Source: Mobula hypostoma (lineage: Eukaryota). Taken from it: a stretch of DNA of 64,000 nt. The position numbers and the translations under genes were made by a program. Where the stretch lies: contig NC_086108.1 of the NCBI RefSeq assembly GCF_963921235.1, positions 48,052,001-48,116,000 of the forward strand, in the 5' to 3' direction. The notes under the pieces were generated by a model. The model was not told the DNA's origin. It saw only the letters and a program-made list of their open reading frames with translations, and searched no databases. How positions within the stretch are numbered: the first letter of the stretch is position 1; every line of letters starts with the position of its first letter. Below, one piece after another: positions 930 to 45,199 of the stretch.

Positions 930-2229
930 ACGTACAGTACCAGCAGATAAGGTCTGTTAGATAGGCATTATGATTGTTGGAGACATGGTGTTTATGACTG
1001 TATTGTTCTATATTCGAGTACACATATTATTGGTGGTGTAGATATGAGGATACTCAGGGCAGAAGTGGAGTCAGCCCTGATGTCTTTCAAAGTTAAATCT
1101 ATTTGTATTGATGTCTAAAGAGTTGTAAGGGGTCCAATAAAGAGATGGGTATGTTGAATGGACAGGGATAAACATAAGATAATATAGTAAAATGTATTGC
1201 TTTTTTAAGCTAAAACTCGTTGGATTAATTTCTAAATGCCAAGTTAGAAATGGGTTTCAAAGTTACCACTCTGTGATAACATTATTCAGCTGAACAGCTG
1301 CTTTTGTACAAATTCTTGCAAGCATGATGTGTACTTAGAAATGCAGCAACTTCCTCTATTTTGTGTAAACATATTAGTAATGTCTGTTTTTTCTCAGTAA
1401 ATGATAAATTTTTCCTGACAAACTCAATAAGACTTTGCAAGACATGTTGTTGTAATAGTGGTGCAGACTGTCTCTTTTGCAAGTTGGATCTGTTGCCATG
1501 GATATTTGTCAATAAGATTTTTTCTTCTGTGTGAGCCAGACTGTTCAGCTTGCATGCTGATCTTTGAATGTGAAAATACATATCAAGGAGAAATTTTCAC
1601 AAATAGGAGTTTGCAACCAATTTGCTAAAAATAAACAAATTGAAATATCGTTCACTGCTGTTGAAATGTTATTTCAAAAGAGCACAATCATCCCTGTCTC
1701 TGCCAAAAGGACTGCCTATTGGGGTACAGTTCCATGGATGTAGTATTGTAGAATTTCCTGCTTCCAAATGGCTAGTTCTTGCTGTTCTGTTGAAGAAGGG
1801 ATTTCTTTATGTGATCAACACGGTTCTGCCACAGCAACAAGCAGGAAATATTTGTCGGAATTTTTTTTTCTCTCTGCTCTTCATGCTCTGGTCACGGCTG
1901 CTGGAAATTCTTGATGGCAGCCTCCCTTGCAAGCAGATAGGAAATTATCCAGTAGTGGCCCTCATTTTAAATTAGGTTCCACAAGATGATTCAATGCCTT
2001 GGTGGTTCAAACCCAGCTTCACCATTCCTTTTGCAGATTTTCAGTGTAATGTTACTTCTGTTTAAACGTACCGTGGCTTAACAGTAAAGAATCATATTCT
2101 GGAAGAATTAGAGAACTTTTATTTACAGTAATAAACAAACACGTCTTAACCCAGCTATGTGCTGGAACATTCTGGCAATCCTGCACATGCTCAGTGCTCT
2201 GTCTAATCATGTACTGGCACATTATTGCA

Positions 2230-4355
2230 ACACACCTCAAAGTTGCTGGTGAACGCAGCAGGCCAGGCAGCATCTCTAGAAAGAGGTGCAGTCGACATTT
2301 TGGGCCGAGACCCTTCGTCAGGACTAACTGAAGGAAGAGTTAGTAAGAGATTTGAAAGTGGGAGGGGGAGGGGGAGATCCGAAATGATAGGAGAAGACAG
2401 GAGGGGGAGGGATGGAGCCAAGAGCTGGACAGGTGATTGGCAAAAGGGATATGAGAGGATCATGGGACAGGAGGCCCAGGGAGAAGGAAAAGGGGGAGGG
2501 GGGAAAAACCCAGAGGATGGGCAAGGGGTATAGTCAGAGGGACAGAGGGAGAAAAGGGAGAGAGAGAGAAAGAATGTGTGTATATAAATAAATAATGGAT
2601 AGGGTATGAGGGGGAGGTGGGGCATTAGCAGAAGTTTGAGAAGTCAATGTTCATGCCATCAGGTTGGAGGCTACCCAGACAGAATATAAGGTGTTTTTCC
2701 TCCAACCTGAGTGTGGCTTCATCTTTACAGTAGAGGAGGCTGTGAATAGACATATCAGAATGGGAATGGGATGTGGAATTAAAATGTGTGGCCACTGGGA
2801 GATCCTGCTTTCTCTGGTGGACAGAGCGTAGGTGTTCAGCAAAATGATCTCCCAGTCTGCGTCGGGTCTCACCAATATATAGAAGGCCACATCGGGAGCA
2901 CCAGACGCAGTATATCACCCCAGCTGACTCACAGGTGAAGTGTTGCCTCACCTGGAGGAACTGTCTGGGGCCCTGAATGGTGGTAAGGGAGGAAGTGTAA
3001 GGGCATATGTAGCACTTGTTCCGCTTACAAGGATAAGTGCCAGGAGGGAGATCAGTGGGGAGGGATGGGGGGGGGATGAATGGATAAGGGAGTCGCGTAG
3101 GGAGTGATCCCTGTGGAAAATGGGGGGGGGGGAGGGATCCCGTTGGAGGTGGCAGAAGTTATGGAGAATAATATGTTGGACTCGGAGGCTGGTGGGGTGG
3201 TAGCTTAGGATCAGGGGAACCCTATTCCTAGTGGGGTGGTGGGAGGATGGTGAGAGCAGATGTGCGTGAAATGGGGGAGATGCGTTTGAGAGCAGAGTTG
3301 ATGGTGGAGGAGTGGAAGCCTCTTTCTTTAAAAAAGGAGGACATCTCCCTCGTCCTGGAATGAAAAGCCTCATCCTGAGAGCAGATACGGCGGAGTCGGA
3401 GGAATTGCGAGAAGGGGATGGCATTTTTGCAAAAGACAGGGTGAGAAGAGGAATAGTCCAGATAGCTGTGAGAGTCAGTAGGCTTATAGTAGACATCAGT
3501 AGATAAGCTGTCTCCAGAGATAGAGACAGAAAGATCTAGAAAGGGGTGGGAGGTGTCGGAAATGGACCAGGTAAACTTGAGGGCAGGGTGAAAGTTGGAG
3601 GCAAAGTTAATGAAGTCAACGAGCTCAGCATGTGTGCAGGAAGCAGCGCCAATGCGTCATCGATGTAGCGAAGGAAGAGTGGGGGACAGATACCAGAATA
3701 GGTTTGGAACATAGATTGTTCCACAAAGCCAACAAAAAGGCAGGCATAGCTAGGACCCATACGGGTGCCCATAGCTATACCTTTAGTTTGGAGGAAGTGG
3801 GAGGAGTCAAAGGAGAAATTGTTAAGAGTAAGGACTAATTCCGCTAGATGGAGCAGAGTGGTGGTGGAGGGGAACTGATTAGGTCTGGAATCCAAAAAGA
3901 AGTGGAGAGCTTTGAGACCTTCCTGATGGGGGATGGAAATATATAAGGACTGGACATCCATGGTGAAGATAAAGCGGTGGGGGCCAGGGAACTTAAAATC
4001 ATGAAAAAGTTCAAGAGCGTGAGAAGTGTCATGAACATAGGTAGGAAGGGATTGAACAAGGGGGGATAAAACCATGTCGAGGTATGCAGAAATGAGTTCG
4101 GTGGGGCAGGAGCAAGCTGAGACAATAGGTCTGTCAGGACAGGCAGGTTTGTGTCTTCTCCTATCATTTTGGATCGCCCCCTCCCCCTCCCACTTTCAAT
4201 CTCTTACTAGCTCTTCCTTCAGTTAGTCCTGACGAAGGGTCTCGGCCCGAAACGTGGACTGTACCTCTTCCTAGAGATGCTGCCTGGCCTGCTGCGTTCA
4301 CCAGCAACTTTGATGTGTGTTGCTTGAATTTCCAGCATCTGCAGAATTCCTCGTG
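2230..4355 (-). mobile_element. Penelope-like element: 5'-truncated RT and GIY-YIG endonuclease, with an inverted terminal repeat copy; 16-bp TSD
   Basis: ORF 3536..4075 has TMDVQSLY, QTKGIAMGT and LRYIDD; ORF 2625..2951 has VIYCVWC..LYIGETRR. About 4153-4322 is the reverse complement of about 2230-2400. TSD ctggcacattattgca at 2214-2229 and 4356-4371. Confidence 0.92.
4225..4260 (+). ncRNA. Minimal hammerhead ribozyme motif of a Penelope terminal repeat (variant copy)
   Basis: AGTC-CTGACGA-A-GGGT(CTCG)GCCC-GAAAC-GTG-GACT. The core is intact, but the cleavage triplet is GUG rather than GUC. Confidence 0.7.
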
Positions 4356-4386
4356 CTGGCACATTATTGCACGTGATATCACCACA

Positions 4387-4399
4387 TCTTCCTTTCCTT
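4387..4399 (-). promoter_or_regulatory. Polypurine tract AAGGAAAGGAAGA
   Basis: Abuts the TG start of the 3' LTR on the - strand and is preceded by a T-rich run. Confidence 0.8.
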
Positions 4400-4628
4400 A
4401 AAAAGAAAAACAATTACCAACATTAATCAAAACACATCTATATCAGATAACTGAAACTCTGAAGTTGGCTCTTTTTTAAACCCTTTGCGATTCTTTCTTA
4501 ACACTGCTCCCCGCTCTGTTTGGACTATGTATGATCTGGTCTGTGTCCATGTGTTCCTTTTATCTTGTATCCTCACTTTGTCTCCTTGTCCTTCAGACAA
4601 ACGTCTCCTTTAGATCAGTCAATTCACA

Positions 4629-4755
4629 TTCCACTTCCATTTGTAATGAAATATGAATCTTCTTCATCTAATTCATTCATTAACTGTGTAATCTCTTTTT
4701 TATGCTGAGACTTTATCATTTCAATAATATTTCTCAGTTCTTTCACTTGTGCTTT
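4629..4755 (-). pseudogene. SH3KBP1: Captured processed fragment of SH3KBP1 (CIN85) C-terminal coiled coil
   Basis: Reads KAQVKELRNIIEMIKSQHKKEITQLMNELDEE/IHISLQMEVE, versus recalled human [44 protein letters not shown]. Frameshift at ~4660. Confidence 0.8.
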
Positions 4756-5039
4756 CACTGTTTCCTTATACTGTGCCCACTGTGAGTGTTCTTGCTCTAG
4801 ACGGTGATGAAACTGAATCTCATATTCTCTCAGTGTCTCTTTCATTATCGCTTGCATTGAAGCAACCTCCTCCTGCCATGCTTCTTCACATCATCAATTG
4901 CCTCCTGTTTGGTCGTCTCAGAAACTGCAGCTACTGCTCTTATGTTCTCCATGTCAGCATTTGCCTGCATGAGCTGGATCTGCAGTCGAGTTACTTCACC
5001 TTCTGCCGACTGTAATACAACATTCTGTCACTTCAGCTC
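4756..5039 (-). pseudogene. RABEP1: Captured processed fragment of RABEP1 (Rabaptin-5) N-terminal coiled coil
   Basis: Manual translation: ELK*QNVVLQSAEGEVTRLQIQLMQANADMENIRAVAAVSETTKQEAIDDVKK/WQEEVASMQAIMKETLREYEIQFHHRLEQEHSQWAQYKETV. It is collinear with recalled human DLKRQNAVLQ..EMENIKAIATVSENTKQEAIDEVKRQWREEVASLQAVMKETVRDYEHQFHLRLEQERTQWAQYRES. One stop (5028-5030) and one frameshift (~4879). Confidence 0.88.
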
Positions 5040-5566
5040 TGTGTCACTATCAAGACAAAAATTCTTTTCACCAAATTAGGTTTTTCACAGGCAGATAAAC
5101 CCAGAATTGACTGTACATTTTTTGGCATGACCACAAATGAAAGCGTGTGCACAATATTTTTGTGTGATACCTTTGCCATGCATGTTCCTTTAACTGGAAT
5201 GTCTGCACCTGAATACCCAGTCACTTTTATATTTGTCTGATGTAACTTCGGTCTGGCTTTAAAGTATTAAACTCAGATTCTGCAAGGGCAGTTACTTGTG
5301 CTCCAGTATCAAGTTTAAACAGAATATTGCAACGGAATAGTCCAGTCATTCTTACTTTGTTTATTTTCACAAAGCACATCTATATAAAATTCCTCACATT
5401 CATCTTCAAGCACAGCATTTACTTGTTTCATTTTATTTTCCTTCTTTCCACTTTTACAACAGCGGGGAAAATGATTAATCTTACCGCAGCCATTGTAAAT
5501 TTTGCCATGTGTGGGACAGTGATTTGGACAATGTTCCCGCGCACAGTGATCACATGACCTTTTTCT

Positions 5567-8460
5567 CAATATTCCTGGATTTCAGTGCTTTAAAAGGGAT
5601 AGAGAGGGCAGAAAAAGGGGAGGAGGGGTGGCATTACTGGTCAGGGATACTATTACAGCTACAGAAAGGGTGGGTAATGTAGCAGGATCCTCTTTTGAGT
5701 CAGTATGGGTGGAAGTCAGGAACAGGAAGGGAGCAGTTACTCTATTGGGGGTATTCTGTAGGCCCCCTGGTAGCAGCAGAGATACAGAGGAGCAGATTGG
5801 GAGGCAGATTTTGGAAAGGTGCAAAAATAACAGGGTTGTTATCATGGGTGACTTTAACTTCACTAATATTGATTGGCACCTGATTAGTTCCAAGGGTTTA
5901 GATGGGGCAGAGTTTGTTAAGTGTGTCCAGGACGAATTCCTGTCACAGTATGTGGACAGGCCGACCGGGGGAAATGCCATACTAGATTTAGTACTAGATA
6001 ATGAACCAGGTCAGGTCACAGATCTCTCAGTGGGTGAGCATCTGGGGGACAGTGACCACTGCTCCCTGGCCTTTAGCATTATCATGGAAAAGGATAGAAT
6101 CAAAGAGGACAGGAACATTTTTAATTGGGGAAAGGCAAATTATGAGGCTATAAGGCTACAACTTGCGGGTATGAATTGGGATGATGTTTTTGCAGGGAAA
6201 TGTACTATGGACATGTGGTCGATGTTTAGAGATCTCTTGCGGGATGTAAGGGATAAATTTGTCCCGGTGAGGAAGGTAAAGAATGGTAGGGTGAAGGAAC
6301 CATGGGTGACAAGTGAGGTGGAAAATCTAGTCGGGTGGAAGAAGGCAGCATACATGAGGTTTAGGAAGCGAGGATCAGATGGGTCTATTGAGGAATATAG
6401 GGAAGCAAGAAAGGAGCTTAAGAAGGGGCTGAGAAGAGCAAGAAGGGGGCATGAGAAGGCCTTGGCGAGTAGGGTAAATGAAAACCCCAAGGCATTCTTC
6501 AATTATGTGAAGAAAAAAAGGATGACAGGAGTGGAGGTAGGACCGATTAGAGATAAAGGTGGGAAGATGTGCCTGGAGGCTGTGGAAGTGAGCGAGGTCC
6601 TCAATGAATACTTCTCTTCGGTATACACCAATGAGAGGGAACTTGATGATGGTGAGGACAATATGAGTGAGGTTGATGTTTTGGAGCATGTTGATATTAA
6701 GGCAGAGGAGGTGTTGGAGTTGTTAAAATACATTAGGACAGATAAGTCCCCGGGGCCTGATGGAATATTCCCCGGGCTGCTCCACGAGGCGAGAGAAGAG
6801 ATTGCTGAGCCTCCAGCTAGGATCTTTATGTCCTCGTTGTCCACGGGAATGGTACTGGAGGATTGGAGGGAGGCGAATGTTGTCCCCTCGTTCAAAAAAG
6901 GTAGTAGGGATAGTCCGGGTAATTATAGACCAGTGAGCCTTACGTCTGTGGTGGGAAAGCTGTTGGAAAAGATTCTTAGAGATAGGATCTATAGGCATTT
7001 AGAGAATCATGGTCTGATCAGGGACAGTCAACATGGCTTTGTGAAGGGCAGATCGTGTCTAACAATCCTGATAGAGTTCTTTGAGGAAGTGACCAGGCAT
7101 ATAGATGGTCCGGGTAATTATAGACCAGTGAGTCTTACGTCTGTGGTGGGAAAGCTGTTGGAAAAGATTCTTAGAGATAGGATCTATAGGCATTTAGAGA
7201 ATCATGTTCTGATCAGGGACAGTCAACATGGCTTTGTGAAGGGCAGATCGTGTCTAACAAGCCTGATAGAGTTCTTTGAGGAGGTGACCAGGCATATAGA
7301 TGAGGGTAGTGCAGTGGATGTGATCTATATGGATTTTAGTAAGGCATTTGACAAGGTTCCACATGGTAGGCTTATTCAGAAAGTTAGAAGGCATGGGATC
7401 CAGGGAAGTTTAGCCAGGTGGATTCAGAATTGGCTTGCCTGCAGAAGGCAGAGGGTGGTGGTGGAGGGAGTACATTCAGATTGGAGGATTGTGACTAGTG
7501 GTGTCCCACAAGGATCTGTTCTGGGACCTCTACTTTTTGTGATTTTTATTAACGACCTGGATGTGGGGGTAGAAGGGTGGGTTGGCAAGTTTGCAGACGA
7601 CACAAAGGTTGGTGGTGTTGTAGATAGTGTAGAGGATTGTCAAAGATTGCAGAGAGACACTGATAAGATGCAGAAGTGGGCTGAGAAGTGGCAGATGGAG
7701 TTCAACCCGGAGAAGTGTGAGGTGGTACACTTTGGAAGGACAAACTCCAAGGCAGAGTACAAAGTAAATGGCAGGATACTTGGTAGTGTGGAGGAGCAGA
7801 GTGATCTCTGGGTACATGTCCACAGATCCCTGAAAGTTGCCTCACAGGTGGATAGGGTAGTTAAGAAGGTTTATGGGGTGTTAGCTTTCATCAGTCGAGG
7901 GATAGAGTTTAAGAGTCGCGATGTAATGATGCAGCTCTATAAAACTCTGGTTAGGCCACACTTGGAGTACTGTGTCCAGTTCTGGTCACCTCACTATAGG
8001 AAGGATGTGGAAGCATTGGAAAGGGTACAGAGGAGATTTACCAGGATGCTGCCTGGTTTAGAATGTATGCATTATGATCAGAGATTAAGGGAGCTAGGGC
8101 TTTACTCTTTGGAGAGAAGGAGGATGAGAGGAGACATGATAGAGGTGTACAAGATAATAAGAGGAATAGATAGAGTGGATAGCCAGCGCCTCTTCCCCAG
8201 GGCACCACTGCTCAATACAACATTCAAGAGGGATATTAGAGGAAGGTTTTTTACTCAGAGAGTGGTTAGTGTGTGGAATGCACTGCCTGAGTCAGTGGTG
8301 GAGGCAGATACACTAGCGAAGTTTAAGGGACTACTAGACAGGTATATGGAGGAATCTAAGGTGGGGGCTTATATGGGAGGCAGTGTTTGAGGGTCGGCAC
8401 AACATTGTGGGCCGAAGGGCCTGTACTGTGCTGTACTATTCTATGTTCTATGTTCTATGT
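5567..8460 (+). mobile_element. CR1-clade LINE, 5'-truncated, inserted into Gypsy gag
   Basis: Long EN-RT ORF, a short 3' UTR and a (TTCTATG)n tail at ~8439-8460. Gag sequence continues on both sides. Confidence 0.93.
5628..8390 (+). CDS. CR1 ORF2 remnant (partial AP endonuclease and RT, 920 aa) with an in-frame 65-aa duplication
   Basis: Motifs MGDFN, SDH, KSPGPDG, NYRPVSLTS, DFSKAFDKV, SGVPQGSVLGP and FADD. Confidence 0.85.
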   Translation: MALLVRDTITATERVGNVAGSSFESVWVEVRNRKGAVTLLGVFCRPPGSSRDTEEQIGRQILERCKNNRVVIMGDFNFTNIDWHLISSKGLDGAEFVKCVQDEFLSQYVDRPTGGNAILDLVLDNEPGQVTDLSVGEHLGDSDHCSLAFSIIMEKDRIKEDRNIFNWGKANYEAIRLQLAGMNWDDVFAGKCTMDMWSMFRDLLRDVRDKFVPVRKVKNGRVKEPWVTSEVENLVGWKKAAYMRFRKRGSDGSIEEYREARKELKKGLRRARRGHEKALASRVNENPKAFFNYVKKKRMTGVEVGPIRDKGGKMCLEAVEVSEVLNEYFSSVYTNERELDDGEDNMSEVDVLEHVDIKAEEVLELLKYIRTDKSPGPDGIFPGLLHEAREEIAEPPARIFMSSLSTGMVLEDWREANVVPSFKKGSRDSPGNYRPVSLTSVVGKLLEKILRDRIYRHLENHGLIRDSQHGFVKGRSCLTILIEFFEEVTRHIDGPGNYRPVSLTSVVGKLLEKILRDRIYRHLENHVLIRDSQHGFVKGRSCLTSLIEFFEEVTRHIDEGSAVDVIYMDFSKAFDKVPHGRLIQKVRRHGIQGSLARWIQNWLACRRQRVVVEGVHSDWRIVTSGVPQGSVLGPLLFVIFINDLDVGVEGWVGKFADDTKVGGVVDSVEDCQRLQRDTDKMQKWAEKWQMEFNPEKCEVVHFGRTNSKAEYKVNGRILGSVEEQSDLWVHVHRSLKVASQVDRVVKKVYGVLAFISRGIEFKSRDVMMQLYKTLVRPHLEYCVQFWSPHYRKDVEALERVQRRFTRMLPGLECMHYDQRLRELGLYSLERRRMRGDMIEVYKIIRGIDRVDSQRLFPRAPLLNTTFKRDIRGRFFTQRVVSVWNALPESVVEADTLAKFKGLLDRYMEESKVGAYMGGSV

Positions 8461-8689
8461 TTTCCAATGCCATCCTGCTCTCTTTCGGTTTCGTCGACGT
8501 ATTATTATATTTCTTGATATACTTGTGCTTTATTACAGCATTTAAATTGCAGTTTTCGACAAAAAGCTCTTCAGCCTGCAATGTCACGGTCTCAGAAGCT
8601 TTGCAAAGTGCCAAAGCTTTTTCGAAATTTAAATCTTACTCTCTCAACAGCCTTTCTCTCAGAGCATTATCTCGAATGCCACAAACAAG

Positions 8690-10313
8690 AAATTGATGCT
8701 CTATTAAAAGATTCCGGAAGTTTACCAAGTTTCAAAGAAGCCTCAAAAACTTTATAGAGCCAAGGAATCAATAAAGAAGCAAAACATTTATAAAATTCAA
8801 CGGTAAACCCATCAGGGCCAGGAGCTTTCCCCAGATTCATAGAAAAAATAACATTCTTAATCTCATCCATTGTAATGGAAGTATCTAATAAAGAAGACAT
8901 ATCCTCTGAAATCTGAGGGAAGTCTAACTTATCTAAAAAATCATTCATATATTTAGAATCTCGAGGAGACTCTGATTGATATAAAGAAGAATAAAAATCA
9001 CAAAAGGTTTGATTAATCCCCACATGATCCAATATCAATCGATCATTTTGGTTATAAATCTGATTAATTTGAGATTTAACATAATTAGATTTCAATTGAT
9101 TAGCCAGCAGCTTCCCAATTTTATCACTGTGAACATAAAAATCACTTCTTGTTTTCTTTAATTGGTTTACAATCGAGGACGAGAGTAGTAAACTGTGTTC
9201 CATTTGAAGTTCAGTTCTTTGTTTGTATAGCTCCTCAGAAGGAGCCATAACATATTTCTTATCAATTTCTTTAATCTTGTCCACAATTGCCATCTCCTCC
9301 TGCTTCTGTTTCTTCCTCAAAGCAACGGAATACGAAATAATCTGACCCCGAATATAGGCTTTAAAAGTGTCCCAAAGAGTGTTAACCGAAATATCTTCTG
9401 TATGGTTAATTGTAAAAAAAAGCTCAATCTGTTCATTCATAAAATTAACAAAGTCCGAGTCCTGAAGCAACAGCGAATTAAAGCGCCATTGTCTATTGTT
9501 TGGTATATTGGCCATAATTTTAATAGAAAGCTTAAGTGGAGCATGATCCGAAATGGTTATAGAATCATAATCACATTTAATCACTGAAGGAATGAGACGA
9601 GAATCAATAAAAAAATAATCAATTCTTGAATAGGAATGATGAACATGTGGAAAAAAAGGAAAAATCTTTTTCCTGAGGATGCAGAAAACGCCAAATGTCC
9701 GTCGACCCAGAATCAGAAAGGAAAAAATTAATCAAATTTGCAGATTTATTAGGTAAAGTCCGTAAAGGAGCCGAACGGTCCAAAGCTGGAGATAAACAGG
9801 TATTAAGATCTCCGCCCCAAATCAATGAAAACTCATTCAAATTAGGAAACTGATCAAACAATGATTTATAAAATTCCGGACAATCCATATTAGGAGCATA
9901 AACATTAACCAAAACTACTTTTTTATTAAATAGTAAACCACTAACCAATAAAAATCTACCATTCGGATCAGAGATAATATCCTGTTGTATAAAAGTAACT
10001 GAGGAATCTATAAAAATAGAGACGCCTCGAATCTTAGCATTGGAGTTCGAATGAAATTGTTGACCCTTCCAGAATTTGAAAAAACGTAGTCTGTCCCCCC
10101 TCCGTACATGGGTCTCTTGTAAAAATAAAATTTGTGCTTTAAGTCTCCGGAATCTTGGTTATCTTGGTTTCTTATGCTTAAATTACATTGTTTGTAGTAT
10201 TTTCTTTTTGGTATTGTTATCTTTTGGAATTTTATTATACTTTAACATTGCATTAATGTTTATATGGCTTACCTTTTTTGTATACTTACTCAATAAAAAG
10301 ATTTAAAAAGAAA
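8690..10313 (+). mobile_element. 5'-inverted, internally deleted L1 copy inside Gypsy gag; 16-bp TSD
   Basis: 8690-10152 matches ORF2 segment ~18543-20006 of the full-length L1. ~10157-10313 is the L1 3' UTR end in the opposite orientation, with AATAAA and an A-rich tail. TSD gaatgccacaaacaag at 8674-8689 and 10314-10329. Confidence 0.93.
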
Positions 10314-10820
10314 GAATGCCACAAACAAGTCTATCTTTAATGAGAGAGTCCATGAGCAATCCAAACTCGCATGTTCTACTACGCTTTCTTAACTCGGTAA
10401 CATACTGATCAATTGTTTCAGCAGCTCTCTGCGCATATGTGAAGAATTATATCGCTCATATGTTAAATTACGCTTAGGTATACAAAATACTTCAAATGTG
10501 TCCATTATCAACTTTAGATTGAAGTTACCTCCATCTTCAAAGACAAAATTATTATATACATCTACTGCGTCATTCCCGATTACATGGAGCAAAAGCGCAG
10601 CTTTGGTTGTTTCTGATTTTTCTTCATAATCGATTGCTGATAAGTACAGTTCAAACTGTTGCTTGAATATCCTCCAACTGTCAACTACATTGCCAGTCAG
10701 CTGAAGTTTTAGTGAGGGTTATAAACCTTCCATTTTACCATTTACAGTTCGAACTTTTTTCTTCTTCTCTTTTTTCTCGATTATCTTCGATTCTCCATTC
10801 TCCTGTATTATTTTTCCAGA

Positions 10821-10836
10821 ACCACTTCTGACACCA
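10821..10836 (-). promoter_or_regulatory. Primer binding site TGGTGTCAGAAGTGGT (tRNA-Leu type)
   Basis: Immediately inside the 5' LTR; begins TGG, complementary to tRNA CCA. Confidence 0.85.
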
Positions 10837-11036
10837 TGTTATGTTACTTCTGTTTAAACGTACCGTGGGTTAACAATAAAGACTCATATTCTGGAAGAAT
10901 TAGAGACCTTTTATTTACAGTAATAAACAAACACGTCTTAACCCAGCCACGTGCTGGAACATTCTGGCAATCCCACGCGTGCTCAGTGCTCTGTCTAATC
11001 ATGTACTGGCACATCATTGCACGTGATATCACCACA
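10837..11036 (-). repeat. 5' LTR of the Gypsy element (200 bp)
   Basis: Reads tgttatgttac...atcaccaca on +, adjacent to the PBS. About 12 mismatches to the other LTR by manual count. Confidence 0.92.
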
Positions 11037-12184
11037 GAGGAGTTAGATTCTGCTGATTATTCAGGGTCAGACTTTAACCATCCTCGTGGATAGAAGCAAG
11101 TACGTTTGTATTTAATTAAAAAAGAAGTTCCATTTCTGCAGCCTCTACACTGCCTTCATTACTTGGTCTATATGTTAATAGTGTGGTACTAAAGCATGGC
11201 CAAAATAGGGAGAGGTGGGGGAAGGGAAGAAGATGGGTCCTAAATCAGGGACTAGGTCACTTCCTAAGCCAAATCATCTGCTCAAACCTGAGCGCTGTTG
11301 CTCTCTGGCTTAGTTCGTGGTGAAATCCCCCTCCATAACAGCAGTCGCAGATTGTTCGAGATCCAATTTGTCACCATGGAGAATGTGTGCTTGCCTATCT
11401 ATCCACATTAATCTGACATGGAACTCACTGCTCTCAAAGACCTTAAATATTCTTAAATGTTTCTTTTTAAAATACTTCAATAGTTTAAGCTAAAAATAAG
11501 AACACCATTTGTGAAAGCATTCAAAATTATTTAATAGCATTGCAATAAAGAGAGATATACTGCCAGCCTTTCTGTCTGAAGGACACACAATAAAGAATGG
11601 GGTCATGCTATTTAAGCCAGACATGGCTGATGTAAAACAGGGGAGGGTTTCCCATCCACCTGGCTCAAGGTGTTGGTCTCACCAAGATGGACTCACCAAG
11701 TCCAATGTGGCAAGCATCTGCTTCCCATCCCAAATGTGAGCTCTACATCTGGGTATGCAAGTGCAGGAGCAGTCAAAATGGGAAATATTGGGAGGGTGAT
11801 GATTGGGATTATTTTCTTGGAGGAGTCCGTACCACCACCCTCAACACTTGTCATTTGATGTCTATCCGATCATAGATTTCATTTGGTCTGTTTGTGTGTC
11901 TCTCAAATTTAATGACAGATCACTGACTTAAAACATGCGCTGGCAGGTTGTTGAGAGATTTCAGCACCGGACGCAGCTAGTGTTAAATAGATGGGTTGCT
12001 GAACAGTGTGGCTTGTTGGACCGGAAGGGTCAGTTCCGCACAGTGTCTGTAAATAAGATAAATAAGAAATAAGAAATTATCAGTGATATTTAGGGTATAA
12101 GGAAGTCATCTTAACTAATTTAGAATAGTAAGGTAGTTTGTAGTGAATGACCAGATGTAAGTGGTTGTTATCCATTTTAAAGTA

Positions 12185-16310: not shown

Positions 16311-19300
16311 TTACATTAAGTGAAAATATCGAATAAAAGGTCCCCAAATCTGTTCAAATTTAAATGAAGAATCATAAAGGTTACTTCTAATTTTCTCCAA
16401 ATTCAAACATAAAATCGTCTGAGAAAACCAAAAAAAGGTAGTTGGAGCATTAAGCTCTTTCCAATGTTGTAAAATACATCTTTTCGCCATTAAAGTAAGA
16501 AATGCAATCATTCTACGGGCTGAAGGGGAAAGATTACTAGAAATTTTAGGTAGTCCAAAGATAGCAGTAATAGGGTGAGGAGAGATATCTATATTTAATA
16601 CCTTAGAAATAATATTGAAAATATCTCTCCAAAAAGTTTCCAAAGTAGGGCAAGACCAAAACATATGAGTTAAAGAGGCTATCTGCCCCGAACATCTATC
16701 ACAGAAAGGATTAATATGCGAGTAAAAACGCGCTAACTTATCTTTGGACATATGTGCTCTATGAACCACTTTAAATTGAATTAGGGAATGTTTAGCACAA
16801 ATAGAGGAAGTATTAACTAATTGTAAAATCTGCCCCCAATCATCCACAGAAATGGTAAGCCCCAATTCCTGTTCCCAATCTACCCTAATCTTATCAAATG
16901 GAGCTTTCCTAAGTTTCATAATAATATTATAAATCATAGCCGATGCACCTTTCTGACATGGATTAAGGTTAATTATCGAATCTAAAATATATGTAGGAGG
17001 AAGCATTGGAAAGGAAGAAAGTATAGTACTTAGGAAATTTCTAACTTGTAAATATCTAAAAAAATGTATTCTTGATAAGTTATATTTATTAGATAATTGT
17101 TCAAAAGACATAAGGGAACCATCTAAAAATAAATCCAAAAACCGTAAAATACCCTTAGTCTTCCAAGTTTGAAAAGCGCGATCCGTAAAAGAGGGAGGAA
17201 AAAATATGTTACCTAAAATAGGAATCGCTAACCCGAATTGATTAAGATCAAAAAATTTTCTGAATTGAAACCAAATGCGCAAAGCATATTTAACTATTGG
17301 GTTAGAGACCTGCTTAAGACGTTTCGAATCAAAAGGGAGAGAGGAGCCTAAAATAGAACCAAGTGTATAACCCTGAACAGATTGTAATTCCAATGCTACC
17401 CATTTAGGAATAGATAGTATGTCCTGGTCAAGTAACCAAAATTTCATATGTCGAATATTAATAGCCCAATAATAGAATCTAAAGTTAGGTAATGCTAAAC
17501 CTCCATCTCTCTTAGCTTTCTGTAAATGTATTTTACCCAGTCTCGGATTCTTATTCTGCCAAATAAATGAAGAAATTTTAGAGTCAACTTTATCAAAAAA
17601 AGATTTTGGAACAAAGATTGGTAATGCCTGAAACACATATAAAAATTTTGGCAAAAAAAAAATCTTAACTGCATTAATACGACCAATCAAAGTTAAATAT
17701 AAGGGAAACCATTTAGATGAAAGTTGAGTAATATGGTCTATTAATGGTAAAAAGTTAGTCTTAAATAAATCTTTGTATTTACAAGTAATTTTAATCCCAA
17801 GATATGAAAAGTAATTATTAATCAATTTAAATGGAAATTTATAATATAAGGGAAGATGTTTATTAATCGGAAAAAGTTCACTCTTACTAAGATTTAATTT
17901 ATAACCTGAGAAAAGACCAAATTGTGCTAATAACTCTAAAACAGCAGGAATGGATCTCTCAGGATTAGAAATATATAAAAGTAAATCATCAGCATAGAGT
18001 GATAATTTATGGGACTTTAATCCCCGAGTTATCCCAGTAATATTTGAAGATTCTCGAATAGCAATTGCAAGAGGTTCTAATGCAATATCAAATAATAGGG
18101 GACTAAGAGGACAGCCTTGTCGAGTACCACGAAAGAGAGGAAAAAAAGGTGAGTTTAAAGAGTTAGTACGAACCGAGGCTACAGGAGAGTGATATAACAG
18201 TTTAATCCAGGATATAAATTTCAAGCTAAAATTGAACATTTCAAGCACCTTAAATAAATAAGGCCATTCTACTCTATCAAAAGCTTTCTCGGCATCTAAA
18301 GAAATAACACACTCAGGAACATTTTGTGAGGGAGTATAAACGATATTTAACAATGTACGAATATTATAAAAAGAGTAACGACCTTTAATAAAACCCGTTT
18401 GGTCTTTCGAAATAATAGAAGGAAGTACTTTTTCTAGTCTATTTGCTAATAACTTAGAAAAAACTTTAGAATCAACATTTAATAAAGATATTGGTCTATA
18501 AGATGCACATTGAGCAGGGTCTTTATCCTTCTTTAGTATTAGAGAAATTGATGCTCTATTAAAAGATTCAGGAAGTTTACCAAGTTTCAAAGAAGCCTCA
18601 AAAACCCTACAGAGCCAAGGAATCAATAAAGAAGCAAAACATTTATAAAATTCAACGGTAAACCCATCAGGGCCAGGAGCTTTCCCCAGATTCATAGAAA
18701 AAATAACATTCTTAATCTCATCCATTGTAATGGAAGTATCTAATAAAGAAGACATATCCTGTGAAATCTGAGGGAAGTCTAACTTATCTAAAAAATCATT
18801 CATATATTTAGAATCTCGAGGAGACTCTGATTGATATAAAGAAGAATAAAAATCACAAAAGGTTTGATTAATCCCCACATGATCCAGTATCAATCGAACA
18901 TTTTGGTTATAAATCTGATTGATTTGAGATTTAACATAATTAGATTTCAATTGATTAGCCAGCAGCTTGCCAATTTTGTCACTGTGAACATAAAAGTCAC
19001 TTCTTGTTTTCTTTAATTGGTTTACAATCGAGGACGAGAGTAGTAAACTGTGTTCCATTTGAAGTTCAGTTCTTTGTTTGTATAACTCCTCAGAAGGAGC
19101 CATAACATATTTCTTATCAATTTCTTTAATCTTGTCCACAATTGCCATCTCCTCCTGCTTCTGTTTCTTCCTCAAAGCAACAGAATACGAAATAATCTGA
19201 CCCCGAATATAGGCTTTAAAAGTGTCCCAAAGAGTGTTAACCGAAATATCTTCTGTATGGTTAATTGTAAAAAAAAGTTCAATCTGTTCATTCATAAAAT

Positions 19301-20087
19301 TAACAAAGTCCGAGTCCTGAAGCAACAGCGAATTAAAACGCCATTGTCTATTATTTGGTATATTGGCCATAATTTTAATAGAAAGCTTAAGTGGAGCATG
19401 ATCCGAAATGGTTATAGAATCATAATCACATTTAATCACTGAAGGAATAAGACGAGAATCAATGAAAAAATAATCAATTCTTGAATAGGAATGATGAACA
19501 TGTGAAAAGAAGGAAAAATCTTTTTCCTGAGGATGCAGAAAACGCCAAATGTCCGTCGACCCAGAATCAGAAAGGAAAAAATTAATCAGATTTGCAGATT
19601 TATTAGGTAAAGTCCGTAAAGGAGCCGAACGGTCCAAAGCTGGAGACAAACAGGTATTAAGATCTCCGCCCCAGATCAATGAAAACTCGTTCAAATTCGG
19701 AAACTGATCAAACAATGATTTATAAAATTCCGGACAATCCATATTAGGAGCATAAACATTAACCAAAACTACTTTTTTATTAAATAGTAAACCACTAACC
19801 AATAAAAATCTACCATTCGGATCAGAGATAATATCCTGTTGTATAAAAGTAACTGAGGAATCTATAAAAATAGAGACGCCTCGAATCTTAGCATTGGAGT
19901 TCGAATGAAATTGTTGACCCTTCCAGAATTTGAAAAAACGTAGTCTGTCCCCCCTCCGTACATGGGTCTCTTGTAAAAATAAAATTTGTGCTTTAAGTCT
20001 CCGGAACACTTTAAAAACTTTTTTCCTTTTAATAGGATGATTAAGACCATTAGTATTCCAGGAGACAAAATTAATAATAGACTCCAT
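16311..20087 (-). CDS. L1 ORF2p (APE endonuclease, RT, C-terminal CCHC), 1258 aa from the first ATG
   Basis: Motifs SWNTNGL, QETH, GDLN, SDH, YRPISLLN, LDAEKAFD, QGCPLSP, YADD and CDRC..LTHMFWSC; no stops. ATG of MESII is at 20087. Confidence 0.95.
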   Translation of the reverse strand: MESIINFVSWNTNGLNHPIKRKKVFKVFRRLKAQILFLQETHVRRGDRLRFFKFWKGQQFHSNSNAKIRGVSIFIDSSVTFIQQDIISDPNGRFLLVSGLLFNKKVVLVNVYAPNMDCPEFYKSLFDQFPNLNEFSLIWGGDLNTCLSPALDRSAPLRTLPNKSANLINFFLSDSGSTDIWRFLHPQEKDFSFFSHVHHSYSRIDYFFIDSRLIPSVIKCDYDSITISDHAPLKLSIKIMANIPNNRQWRFNSLLLQDSDFVNFMNEQIELFFTINHTEDISVNTLWDTFKAYIRGQIISYSVALRKKQKQEEMAIVDKIKEIDKKYVMAPSEELYKQRTELQMEHSLLLSSSIVNQLKKTRSDFYVHSDKIGKLLANQLKSNYVKSQINQIYNQNVRLILDHVGINQTFCDFYSSLYQSESPRDSKYMNDFLDKLDFPQISQDMSSLLDTSITMDEIKNVIFSMNLGKAPGPDGFTVEFYKCFASLLIPWLCRVFEASLKLGKLPESFNRASISLILKKDKDPAQCASYRPISLLNVDSKVFSKLLANRLEKVLPSIISKDQTGFIKGRYSFYNIRTLLNIVYTPSQNVPECVISLDAEKAFDRVEWPYLFKVLEMFNFSLKFISWIKLLYHSPVASVRTNSLNSPFFPLFRGTRQGCPLSPLLFDIALEPLAIAIRESSNITGITRGLKSHKLSLYADDLLLYISNPERSIPAVLELLAQFGLFSGYKLNLSKSELFPINKHLPLYYKFPFKLINNYFSYLGIKITCKYKDLFKTNFLPLIDHITQLSSKWFPLYLTLIGRINAVKIFFLPKFLYVFQALPIFVPKSFFDKVDSKISSFIWQNKNPRLGKIHLQKAKRDGGLALPNFRFYYWAINIRHMKFWLLDQDILSIPKWVALELQSVQGYTLGSILGSSLPFDSKRLKQVSNPIVKYALRIWFQFRKFFDLNQFGLAIPILGNIFFPPSFTDRAFQTWKTKGILRFLDLFLDGSLMSFEQLSNKYNLSRIHFFRYLQVRNFLSTILSSFPMLPPTYILDSIINLNPCQKGASAMIYNIIMKLRKAPFDKIRVDWEQELGLTISVDDWGQILQLVNTSSICAKHSLIQFKVVHRAHMSKDKLARFYSHINPFCDRCSGQIASLTHMFWSCPTLETFWRDIFNIISKVLNIDISPHPITAIFGLPKISSNLSPSARRMIAFLTLMAKRCILQHWKELNAPTTFFWFSQTILCLNLEKIRSNLYDSSFKFEQIWGPFIRYFHLM

Positions 20088-20807
20088 AAATCCTAAAGTC
20101 AACCTACAACAAGGAGGATTGACGATAGGCGCGACCCACAAACCCGGAGAGGAAACAGAACATACAAAAGATACCGGGAAAAAGGACGCAACCAGTACTT
20201 CAATAATGTATATAGCCCAAAGAGAAACAAACTAAAACGTGAAGCCCCTCCCACCACCCACCGCCCCAAGACCCCAAGGCAAAATCTAAAGCAGACCCGC
20301 CAGAAAGAAGCAAGCGCTAAAACTGCCCCCATGACTTCCGGTATACGCTCCCTAAAAAAAAAAGGTATAAATATGAAAAGGATCAGCTAATTGTAAAACA
20401 GTAAAAAAGTAAAAAAAAAGGTAGCTCAATTAAAATACACACAGAACAGAACAAAAGCCGGAAAATATATATTTAAAAAAAACCACAATAAACCTCAAAC
20501 CCATGAATAGACACAGCAACAAGAAAAAATAAGATTATTGACATAAAGTGGTTATAAAAAGCAAAACAGAATAAAATTTAAAAAAAACTACAAAATTTAA
20601 GGCCACACAGGAAATACGTAAGATGACAAAAGGGAAGTAACCACCCAGAATCCCCTGGGAAAAGAAAGAAATGACGCAGTTAAAAAGAAAGTTTAGCAAC
20701 CATATTAAGAAATCAAAAGTAAACTTTTCTGCCCAGATAGGGCACGAAAAAGTTAAAACCAACCAATTCACAGCCTCCGATCAACGGAGATAATTAAAAA
20801 AAGGCAA

Positions 20808-21707
20808 TTAAGATGTTGAAGATGAAAGTTGATCCAGATAACTCTGGGCATCCGATGGAGAACCAAAAAAACGAAGGGCTCCATCTGACATGCGAATCCT
20901 TAGACGTGCAGGGTACAGCAGCGCTGGTCTTAAGTCCATCTTATAGAATTCCGACATCACGGATCTGTAACGAACCCGTTGGTCCCAGATTGGTTTACTG
21001 AAATCTTCCACGAATCGGAACTTAAGATCCGAAAAATCAATGAAACCTTTAGATCGAGCGAATCGAAACAGTCTCTCCTTGTCTTGAAAGTAATGAAAAC
21101 GTAAAATAACATGCCTAGGTCTATCTGACCTAGACGAGTATGATGGGATTCTGTGAACACGATCCAGAAGCGGTGGTTGGTCAGGAAATACAGTAGGGAA
21201 TGCATCTTTTAAAAGTTGAGAAAAATATTTCATGGGGTTGTTGGATTCCACAGCTTCCCTCACCCCGATCATTCGTAAATTCTGCCGTCGCATTCTAGAT
21301 TCCAAGTCAGAGTTTTTAAAAGTCAAAAAGTCAAGTTTCTTCTTCATTACATTAATTGTTTCTTCGATTTTCCCCAGCTTAAGCTCACTTTGTTGCGCGA
21401 ATTTTTGAAGATCAGATATAGCCGACTGATGTTCCGCAATAAATGTTTGCATCTTATCAATTGAATCGGCAATTTTCTGGAGATTAGTTGAGATTTCCGT
21501 ATGAATCAGGTCTTTAACAGAGCCTGCAATTTCCGTACGAATCATCTCCCTAACAGAGGTTGAAATTTCCCTCTGAATTAACTCCGATATCGCTTTCAAA
21601 GTCACCGGTGATTCAGTCGGGGGGAAATCCGTAGCTTTCGGTTTAACCGGAGGTTTACCATCCTTGCCGTTTTTCCCGTTCTTAGACATAGCAGATCTAA
21701 GTATCAT
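20808..21707 (-). CDS. L1 ORF1p (coiled coil, RRM, CTD; Transposase_22-like)
   Basis: Heptad region, then DLESRMRRQNLRMIGVRE, RVHR, RPRHVILRF and LLYPARLRI. An alternative ATG is at 21689. Confidence 0.92.
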   Translation of the reverse strand: MILRSAMSKNGKNGKDGKPPVKPKATDFPPTESPVTLKAISELIQREISTSVREMIRTEIAGSVKDLIHTEISTNLQKIADSIDKMQTFIAEHQSAISDLQKFAQQSELKLGKIEETINVMKKKLDFLTFKNSDLESRMRRQNLRMIGVREAVESNNPMKYFSQLLKDAFPTVFPDQPPLLDRVHRIPSYSSRSDRPRHVILRFHYFQDKERLFRFARSKGFIDFSDLKFRFVEDFSKPIWDQRVRYRSVMSEFYKMDLRPALLYPARLRIRMSDGALRFFGSPSDAQSYLDQLSSSTS

Positions 21708-21944
21708 CCAATTGTCGGAGAATTCAGTTTAATTCAAAGTATTGTAAGAATTGATGCCTTAATGGTTAATTAAAGTATAGCTGACCATAGAGAAAAAAAA
21801 CTCAGAGGTAATGGAGCGAGTCAAGAACGCGACTTCACTCCATGAGCGCTACCGGAAGTCTCCTCTTCCCACTCTCTCCAAATCCAGCATGTAGCCATGG
21901 CCACCCACATGGGTCGCAACTATGCCTGTTTTTTTTTTTGGCTA

Positions 21945-44143: not shown

Positions 44144-45199
44144 GGGGCACCATGGTGGTGTAGCGGTTAACACAGCGCCATTACAGCTCAGGGTGTTTCG
44201 GAGCTCAGTTCCGTTGCCACCTGTGAGGAGTCTGTACATTCTCCCCAAGGAATGTGTGAGTTTTCCCTGAGGAAGGTGTGAGTTTTCCCTGAGGAAGGTG
44301 TGAGTTTTTCCCGAGGAATGTGTGAGTTTTCCCCGAGGAATGTGTGAGTTTTCCCCGAGGAATGTGTGAGTTTTCCCCGAGGAAGGTGTGAGTTTTCCCC
44401 GAGGAAGGTGTGAGTTTTCCCCGAGGAAGCTGTGAGTTTTCCCCGAGGACGGTGTGAGTTTTCCCCGAGGAGGGTGTGAGTTCTCCCTGAGGAACGTGTG
44501 AGTTCTCCGTGAGGAATGTGTGAGTTTTCCCCGAGGAAGGTGTGAGTTTTCCCCGAGGAAGGTGTGAGTTCTCCGTGAGGAATGTGTGAGTTCTCCGTGA
44601 GGAATGTGTGAGTTCTCCGTGAGGAAGGTGTGAGTTCTCTGTGAGGAAGGTGTGAGTTTTCCCCGAGGAAGGTGTGAGTTTTCCCCGAGGAGGGTGTGAG
44701 TTTTCCCCGAGGAAGGTGTGAGTTTTCCCCGAGGAATGTGTGAGTTTTCCCCGAGGTGGGTGTGAGTCTTCCCCGAGGAATGTGTGGGTCTTCCCCGAGG
44801 AAGGTGTGAGTTTTCCCCGAGGAGGGTGTGAGTTTTCCCCGAGGAAGGTGTGAGTTTTCCCCGAGGAAGCTGTGAGTCTTCCCCGAGGAAGCTGTGAGTC
44901 TTCCCCGAGGAATGTGTGAGTCTTCCCCGAGGAATGTGTGAGTCTTCCCCGAGGAAGGTGTGAGTCTTCCCCGAGGAAGCTGTGAGTTTTCCCTGAGGAA
45001 GGTGTAAGTTTTCCCTGAGGAAGGTGTGAGTTTTCCCTGACTGCTCCGGCTTCCTCCCATAGCCCAAAGACCTATTGGGTAGGTTAATTGTTCATTGTAA
45101 ATTGTCTCGTGATTAGGCTAGGGTTAATCAGGTTTGTCGGGGGTGGCATGGCTCAAAGGGCCAAGAGAGCCTACAGTGCTGTATTACTAAATAAAATAA
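44144..45199 (+). mobile_element. tRNA-derived V-SINE-like element containing an expanded minisatellite
   Basis: tRNA-like head (ggtggtgtagcggtt), V-domain halves tgtacattctcccc...tgctccggcttcctcccat, and a LINE-like tail ending aaataaaataaa. Confidence 0.75.
44241..45040. repeat. Minisatellite, 21-23-bp unit (GAGGAAGGTGTGAGTTTTCCCC and variants), about 35 copies
   Basis: Directly visible tandem array. Confidence 0.97.

What the first reader, a model, noticed from the sequence alone, without database searches (positions are those of the whole stretch)
4756..5039. RABEP1 fragment appears spliced (mRNA-derived)
Seen: the ~94-codon match has no intron-sized interruption. Its lesions are a TGA at an Arg position (consistent with CGA>TGA CpG decay) and a 1-nt deletion. 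Recalled, unverified: human RABEP1 has exon boundaries near E55 and within the MK-E-TVR segment. If so, the fragment starts near an exon start and crosses one junction, implying capture from RNA rather than DNA.
Basis: partly seen in the sequence, partly recalled or inferred. Interest (0 to 1): 0.7.

Follow-up and report, generated by a model that had tools for sequence, protein, structure and literature searches.

The report
Ray retrotransposon carrying spliced host pieces
This is a dead copy of a ray jumping gene that lost its copying enzymes and carries, in their place, an intron-free piece of the host gene RABEP1 with a piece of a second host gene, SH3KBP1, nested inside it; the capture mechanism is known, but the nested cargo and its spread are unusual.

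Summary
The RABEP1 piece (5040-4756, minus strand) runs straight across a real intron site. A genomic contig shows a 204-nt exon with AG| and |GT ends, ending at ATGAAAG|GT (L001). Eleven of 148 stored proteins with that motif read into the intron there. The window continues into the next exon at 4839|4838.

A 43-codon SH3KBP1/CIN85 coiled-coil piece is nested in the RABEP1 piece, and RABEP1 resumes after it. The cassette replaces about 800 codons of RT, RNase H and integrase in a Gypsy element that keeps both LTRs. Three junctions show 4-7 nt overlaps with both parents.

The same chimera is annotated in two stingrays, and hundreds of contig pieces from two other DNA runs cover it, so it is a multi-copy family. 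RABEP1-only and SH3KBP1-only forms also exist. Best reading: reverse-transcriptase template switching onto spliced RNA, then spread as a non-autonomous element (Tan et al. 2016). Loss of the intron alone does not prove RNA capture. This scan already noted this family at other loci of the same genome.

The parts
10837..11036 (-). 5' LTR, 200 bp, TG...CA
10822..10836 (-). primer-binding-site-like TGG... tract right after the 5' LTR (tRNA identity not tested)
10330..10733 (-). gag, first part, broken
   Evidence: tblastn to fish Gypsy Gag P0136
8690..10313 (-). later insertion: truncated L1 piece, 16-bp target duplication
8453..8689 (-). gag, middle part (lower end approximate)
   Evidence: P0136 73-127 at 8689-8528
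5567..8452 (+). later insertion: CR1-type LINE (ends approximate)
5041..5566 (-). gag end and aspartic protease, broken; frameshift near 5050
   Evidence: P0002, P0129, P0181
4839..5040 (-). RABEP1 piece, the 204-nt exon less its first base; stop at 5030-5028, frameshift near 4879; first 4 nt shared with Gypsy
4756..4838 (-). RABEP1 piece, start of the next exon, joined without intron at 4839|4838
4629..4759 (-). nested SH3KBP1/CIN85 C-terminal coiled-coil piece (about residues 618-663 of P0142); frameshift near 4660; overlaps RABEP1 by 4 nt and 7 nt
4581..4635 (-). RABEP1 resumes where it was left (residues about 155-171); frameshift near 4609
4427..4588 (-). integrase C-terminal remnant to the pol stop, with a short deletion near 4540
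   Evidence: (P0181 1207-1242, E 7e-4, weak), loose ends, P0129 tail
4387..4400 (-). polypurine tract
4356..4386 (-). 3' LTR, first part
   Evidence: 32 of 34 identical to the 5' LTR start
2230..4355 (.). later LINE/SINE-type insertion splitting the 3' LTR, 16-bp target duplication
2045..2229 (-). 3' LTR, rest; 12 differences in 185 nt from the 5' LTR

Best explanation
A decayed copy of a non-autonomous Ty3/Gypsy LTR element of rays, about 2.3 kb without its three later insertions. (1) Shown: it keeps LTRs, PBS, PPT, gag-protease and the integrase tail, and lacks the RT-RNase H-integrase core. (2) Shown: in that place lies spliced RABEP1 sequence with a spliced-looking SH3KBP1 piece nested in it, joined at 4-7 nt overlaps, all four joints in frame. 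(3) Inferred: reverse transcriptase, copying inside a particle that also held RABEP1 mRNA, jumped onto the mRNA and back. (4) Inferred, about 65% within this model: the SH3KBP1 piece came in by a second double jump between a RABEP1-only element and a co-packaged SH3KBP1-carrying sister RNA or the mRNA, at a motif that both ends of the piece share with the RABEP1 site. (5) Inferred from many diverged copies in several rays: intact helpers then copied the chimera widely. This copy has since decayed and cannot make the fusion protein.
For: Intron site: L001; 11 of 148 motif-bearing proteins read MK-G then unrelated sequence, one matching skate RABEP1 residue for residue in that exon; AT-rich loose end at 4846 in 2 contigs of ray-like run X4, 8 nt from the predicted site. 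Intronless DNA elsewhere: 2 of the 16 listed DNA pieces bridge 4839|4838 by the tool's 31-letter rule. Overlaps: 5040-5037, 4759-4756, 4635-4629 from parent-type and Gypsy-type loose ends and joints. Lost core: full Gypsy P0181 (1327 aa) matches up to about 404 and again from 1207. Family: P0001 (Hemitrygon) and P0002 (Hypanus) carry the same joints on contigs of 72.9 and 195.4 Mb, while their RABEP1 genes lie on 181.7 and 183.0 Mb contigs; 666 and 580 contig pieces laid in X1 and X4, all 30 bins covered. Building blocks: joints that skip the SH3KBP1 piece in X1, X4 (depth 380 against 41-77 for listed contigs) and X15 (with the integrase tail attached); P0129 = protease, RT start, SH3KBP1 540-667, integrase tail.
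Against: No target-site duplication flanks the element (CCTC versus CTGA). Overlaps of 4 nt are short and common by chance. The fourth junction's overlap was seen only at protein level. No ray genomic RABEP1 locus was read in full; the ray loose end is 8 nt off the predicted site and its origin is not proven. No listed piece spans the whole cassette and no run held more than 0.40 of its words. Summed contig depth is not a copy number. The RABEP1-only form could be a deletion product, not a precursor.
Confidence: 0.85

Rival explanations
1. Same mechanism, other order: one reverse-transcription round jumped Gypsy to RABEP1 mRNA to SH3KBP1 mRNA and back twice; the RABEP1-only form is a later slip deletion between the repeated motif. 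This is a variant inside the best explanation, so its confidence is a share of it.
For: Both ends of the nested piece resemble the RABEP1 site, so a precise deletion is easy (table 5c). The skipping joints carry far less depth than the cassette.
Against: Needs four jumps with an exact return to the RABEP1 exit point. An SH3KBP1-only sister that contains the whole nested piece exists (P0129).
Confidence: 0.25
2. Capture at DNA or pre-mRNA level with the intron included; the intron was spliced out when the chimera next passed through RNA.
For: Any intron in sense orientation would be lost in a later round, so the spliced state cannot exclude it (established retroelement biology). The 5' joint lies one base inside an exon start; chance of falling within 2 nt of one of about 17 junctions (number recalled) in 2.6 kb is about 3%.
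Against: All joints lie in exon sequence and overlap the mRNA, not intron: the base at 5041 follows Gypsy, not the exon's first base. Two unlinked genes are joined.
Confidence: 0.08
3. The 5' joint was made by splicing: an element sitting in the upstream RABEP1 intron spliced from a cryptic donor into the exon, as proposed for some retroviral oncogene captures (recalled).
For: The piece starts almost exactly at the exon start.
Against: Gypsy-type contigs continue through 5037 and no cut is compatible with both a GT donor and an AG acceptor (read by hand from loose ends at 5037, 5040, 5054 and the read-through in P0212).
Confidence: 0.04
4. An ordinary L1-made processed pseudogene that landed in a Gypsy element.
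For: An L1 with two open frames lies at about 16311-21728, and L1 and CR1 pieces have inserted into this element.
Against: Internal fragment cut at both ends, no poly(A), no duplication around the cargo, about 800 pol codons replaced, same joints in two other species. The true LINE insertions here do show 16-bp duplications.
Confidence: 0.02

Closest known systems
LTR-mediated retrocopies of animals (Tan et al. 2016, PMC5131818; read: abstract, results sections 5, 6, 8 and Discussion; supplements not read)
   Same: Partial mRNA piece replaces part of the element's ORF, short overlaps at joints (their median 6 bp), both LTRs kept, several parent genes possible, further copying as a non-autonomous element.
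   Different: Here gene B is nested in gene A with an exact return, all joints are in frame with gag-protease, single-cargo sister forms exist, and copies appear to be far more numerous than the few sites they report. No cartilaginous fish was among the species named in the sections read.
Maize Bs1 (known here only from Tan et al.'s passages)
   Same: LTR element with pieces of several host genes, shared switch points among copies.
   Different: Plant; three parents, one out of frame; one to five copies.
Crocodilian ERVs with captured KIT-ligand (CrocERV29) and nectin3 (CrocERV31) (PMC4299795; read: search passages)
   Same: Vertebrate germ-line retroelement that captured host mRNA and multiplied with it (nine and six copies reported); purifying selection reported on the cargo.
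   Different: True retroviruses; near-complete host ORFs; pol retained. Here a Gypsy element, short coiled-coil fragments, pol core lost, selection not shown.

Membership tests
LTR-mediated retrocopy (Tan et al. 2016) | Cargo is spliced: crosses a parental intron site | tested here: met
   L001 exon ends and 11 read-through proteins versus continuous window; ray locus itself only as a loose end
LTR-mediated retrocopy (Tan et al. 2016) | Cargo replaces part of the internal ORF of a discontinuous element | tested here: met
   P0181 residues about 405-1206 have no counterpart
LTR-mediated retrocopy (Tan et al. 2016) | Short shared sequence at the fusion points | tested here: met
   4, 4 and 7 nt at three of four joints; fourth seen only as G-E versus G-D at protein level
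LTR-mediated retrocopy (Tan et al. 2016) | Both LTRs present; no poly(A) or target duplication around the cargo | tested here: met
LTR-mediated retrocopy (Tan et al. 2016) | Co-transcription with the LTR | tested here: inconclusive
   One 182-nt contig joining RABEP1 to the integrase tail in X15, whose RNA status is a guess
Ty3/Gypsy LTR retrotransposon | gag-protease-RT-RNase H-integrase order in the helper | tested here: met
   Closest full-length relative P0181 has this Pfam order; the window keeps only its two ends
Ty3/Gypsy LTR retrotransposon | Target-site duplication at the element ends | tested here: not met
   CCTC before, CTGA after; may reflect decay or recombination between copies; lowers 'clean single insertion', not the element type
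Non-autonomous amplified family | Many dispersed copies with the same joints and separate insertion sites | tested here: inconclusive
L1-type processed pseudogene | Poly(A) tail, target duplication, intact 3' end | tested here: not met
Functional retrogene | Open frame under purifying selection | tested here: not met
   This copy has a stop and several frameshifts; selection on the family's active lineage not testable with these data

The most novel reading that the evidence does not exclude
The ray Gypsy lineage did not capture at random. Elements that fused an in-frame host coiled coil to Gag-protease were favoured, because the cargo worked as a part of the particle: an oligomerising or endosome-binding module (the CIN85 coiled coil binds phosphatidic acid and holds ESCRT assembly on endosomes; PMC4096430, abstract). 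Sister elements then swapped these modules by recombination, making a shuffled, high-copy set of host-domain fusions. For: 4 of 4 joints in frame (chance 0.02-0.10); the three copies differ from ray RABEP1 mostly at private or CpG-type sites, so the founder cargo was close to the parent protein; both parents are endosomal adaptors; unchecked scan notes list other helical cargos (myosin, EDC4, RBM25, SLU7). Against: overlaps between purine-rich coding sequences are biased to the same frame, protein searches only find open copies, and no selection test was possible.
Probability: 0.15. Interest if true: 0.8.

Novelty: new member of a known kind. Interest (0 to 1): 0.5.

Why it matters
It is a clear germ-line case of mRNA capture by a Gypsy element in a cartilaginous fish, with both single-cargo forms and the two-gene form present, so the order of events and any selection on the cargo can be tested from public ray genomes. 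In practice these copies are annotated as 'RABEP1-like' or uncharacterized genes in stingrays (P0001, P0002, P0129) and will mislead gene-family counts. The cargo has the residue found in Mobula, Pristis and Narcine RABEP1 where Hypanus and Hemitrygon share another, which places the capture before that change. I found no paper on this family in four searches (listings only; open-licence PMC and bioRxiv only; Repbase and Dfam could not be searched).

Tried and rejected
Run X21 (raw reads) laid 0 reads: no test. No RNA holder was listed. Pfam found nothing for the decayed gag, protease and integrase pieces of the window (5 of 9 queries blank); identity came from tblastn and blastp to fetched Gypsy proteins. 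Rfam: 0 matches in 1500-12000. Paper search for RABEP1 exon structure gave nothing usable (listing only); the boundaries were taken from sequence. SH3KBP1 introns: only the LQ|ME site is hinted, by one Callorhinchus isoform that diverges there (P0155); a second site that I recall was not tested. A selection test was dropped: 54 variant rows were hidden, and the two visible family-versus-parent differences that I read by hand (4867, 5007) are synonymous but could be changes in the parent. No absolute date: LTR distance is 0.069 (K2P) and I had no tested rate. No second RABEP1-type copy of the 5' motif in the window. Look-ups by sequence and by relatives found no notes in other genomes.

Full report
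1. The observation. On the minus strand, 5039-4756 encodes 95 codons of RABEP1 (residues 61-155, ray numbering). It is 86 of 95 identical to Mobula RABEP1, 85 to Hypanus and Hemitrygon, 83 to Pristis, 76-81 to skates, Narcine and sharks, 69 to Callorhinchus. Pfam Rabaptin is hit in both frames. The stop at 5030-5028 and the frameshift near 4879 are as described. The host is therefore a ray, most likely a myliobatiform (inference from sequence).

2. Is it spliced? A metagenome scan with a RABEP1 alignment gave one locus, L001. It is genomic DNA of amniote type, with ...TTTTCAG, a 204-nt exon (2999-3202) ending ATGAAAG, then GTAACAA; the preceding exon lies about 2.2 kb upstream. Of 148 stored proteins holding the motif before this site, 136 continue as spliced RABEP1, 11 read MK-G and then unrelated sequence (G|GT read-through), and 1 diverges otherwise. 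Ten of the 11 are Logan gene calls (one not looked up). One of them, P0212, matches skate RABEP1 residue for residue in the exon and also shows the upstream boundary. In ray-like DNA run X4, two contigs leave the window at 4846 into 109 AT-rich letters, 8 nt from the predicted site; this fits an acceptor aligned slightly too far but is not proof. The window reads ATGAAAG|AGACA at 4839|4838, and 2 of the 16 listed DNA pieces bridge that point by the 31-letter rule. The exon would start at 5041; the RABEP1 match starts at 5040.

3. The cargo is larger. After 4756 the frame matches the CIN85 coiled coil (PDB 2n64, 5abs; E 1e-7) and ray SH3KBP1. RABEP1 then resumes where it was left: P0001 aligns to RABEP1 with a clean 43-residue insert. 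One Callorhinchus isoform diverges at LQ|ME, which suggests an exon boundary at 4641|4640 that the window also crosses.

4. The carrier. A Gypsy element surrounds the cargo: 5' LTR 11036-10837, PBS-like tract, gag split by an L1 piece and a CR1, protease, cargo, integrase tail to a stop at 4427, polypurine tract, and a 3' LTR split by another insertion. Without these insertions it is about 2.3 kb (my arithmetic). The nearest full-length relative, P0181, has protease, RT, RNase H and integrase; the element keeps it to about residue 404 and again from 1207 (the tail match is weak, E 7e-4). The LTRs differ at 12 of 185 sites (K2P 0.069). No target duplication was found at the ends.

5. Junctions. 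Joint 1: the parent-type contig (X15 record 12, whose loose end reads upstream RABEP1) starts matching at 5040; Gypsy-type contigs run on to 5037 and then into the sequence seen in P0129. Overlap 4 nt. No cut fits both a GT donor and an AG acceptor, so splicing did not make it. Joint 2: SH3KBP1-type record 11 starts at 4759 and RABEP1 runs to 4756; 4 nt. Joint 3: SH3KBP1 ends at 4629 and RABEP1 resumes from 4635; 7 nt. Joint 4 was seen only in protein (RABEP1 G-E, element G-D). All four are in frame locally, and P0001 is open across all four. In the window's own sequences, shared 4-7 nt words between cargo and retroelement coding DNA are in frame 39-56% of the time, so four of four has a chance of 0.02-0.10: suggestive only.

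6. A family, not one accident. P0001 (Hemitrygon akajei) and P0002 (Hypanus sabinus) carry the same chimera on contigs of 72.9 and 195.4 Mb; their RABEP1 genes are on 181.7 and 183.0 Mb contigs. On 731 bases, 666 and 580 contig pieces were laid in X1 and X4. Summed depth over the RABEP1 bins is 1,135-7,743 and 1,866-26,926, against 12-34 and 41-77 for the listed contigs. The tool warns that this is no copy number; 'on the order of a hundred or more' is my inference. Joints that skip the SH3KBP1 piece occur in X1, X4 and X15, one with the integrase tail attached, so a RABEP1-only element exists. P0129 is an SH3KBP1-only element with a longer piece (540-667). The three chimeric copies differ from ray RABEP1 mostly at private sites; the six positions where two or more differ are largely Arg or Thr-to-Met (CpG-type) or at the joint. 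So the founder cargo was close to the parent protein and copies decayed separately. The cargo lacks a change shared by Hypanus and Hemitrygon RABEP1, so capture predates it (one site).

7. Mechanism. Template switching by reverse transcriptase between element RNA and co-packaged spliced RNA at short overlaps, then copying by intact helpers (0.85). A stepwise route through the single-cargo forms is likelier than one four-jump round, but the RABEP1-only form could be a deletion. The missing intron alone cannot separate mRNA capture from DNA or pre-mRNA capture followed by splicing (0.08); the exon-internal overlaps and the two unlinked parents favour RNA.

8. Known work. Tan et al. 2016 (PMC5131818; abstract, sections 5, 6, 8, Discussion) describe this structure in flies, mosquito, zebrafish, chicken and mammals, including multi-gene chimeras and secondary copying; their supplements, which I did not read, list further cases. 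Crocodilian ERVs carry KIT-ligand and nectin3 (PMC4299795, passages). Four searches showed no paper on this ray family (listings only). This scan had noted the same family at other loci of this genome, and other cargos. These are unchecked notes. I reached the two-gene reading before looking; the list of other cargos shaped my novel case and was not tested.

9. Verdict. Observation confirmed, interpretation supported but incomplete. A new member of a known kind, with an unusual nested cargo and wide spread. Interest 0.5. The boldest reading left open, that in-frame host coiled coils served the particle and were selected, gets probability 0.15 and would merit 0.8.

Noticed in passing
window 16311-21728 (-): L1 with two open frames (306 and 1306 aa, stop to stop), 98% identical to the truncated L1 piece inside the Gypsy gag; looks young.
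   Followed up: no
window 5550-8390 (+): CR1-type pol frame open for 946 aa, with an in-frame 195-bp tandem duplication at 6909-7302.
   Followed up: no
window 44242-45037: 22-bp minisatellite, 36 copies.
   Followed up: no
window 4670, run X1: Four contigs leave the SH3KBP1 piece here into an unrelated sequence that reads on in frame; possibly another junction or cargo.
   Followed up: no
window 11037-11040 and 2041-2044: No target-site duplication at the element's ends although both LTR ends look complete.
   Followed up: partly
P0205 (unnamed protein): A protein-kinase-like piece joined to RABEP1 sequence from the same two exons; origin unknown.
   Followed up: no
P0129 (Hemitrygon akajei): SH3KBP1-only sister element annotated as an uncharacterized gene with three RefSeq protein records; both joints in frame, at VIKK and KKA shared by both parents at protein level.
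   Followed up: partly
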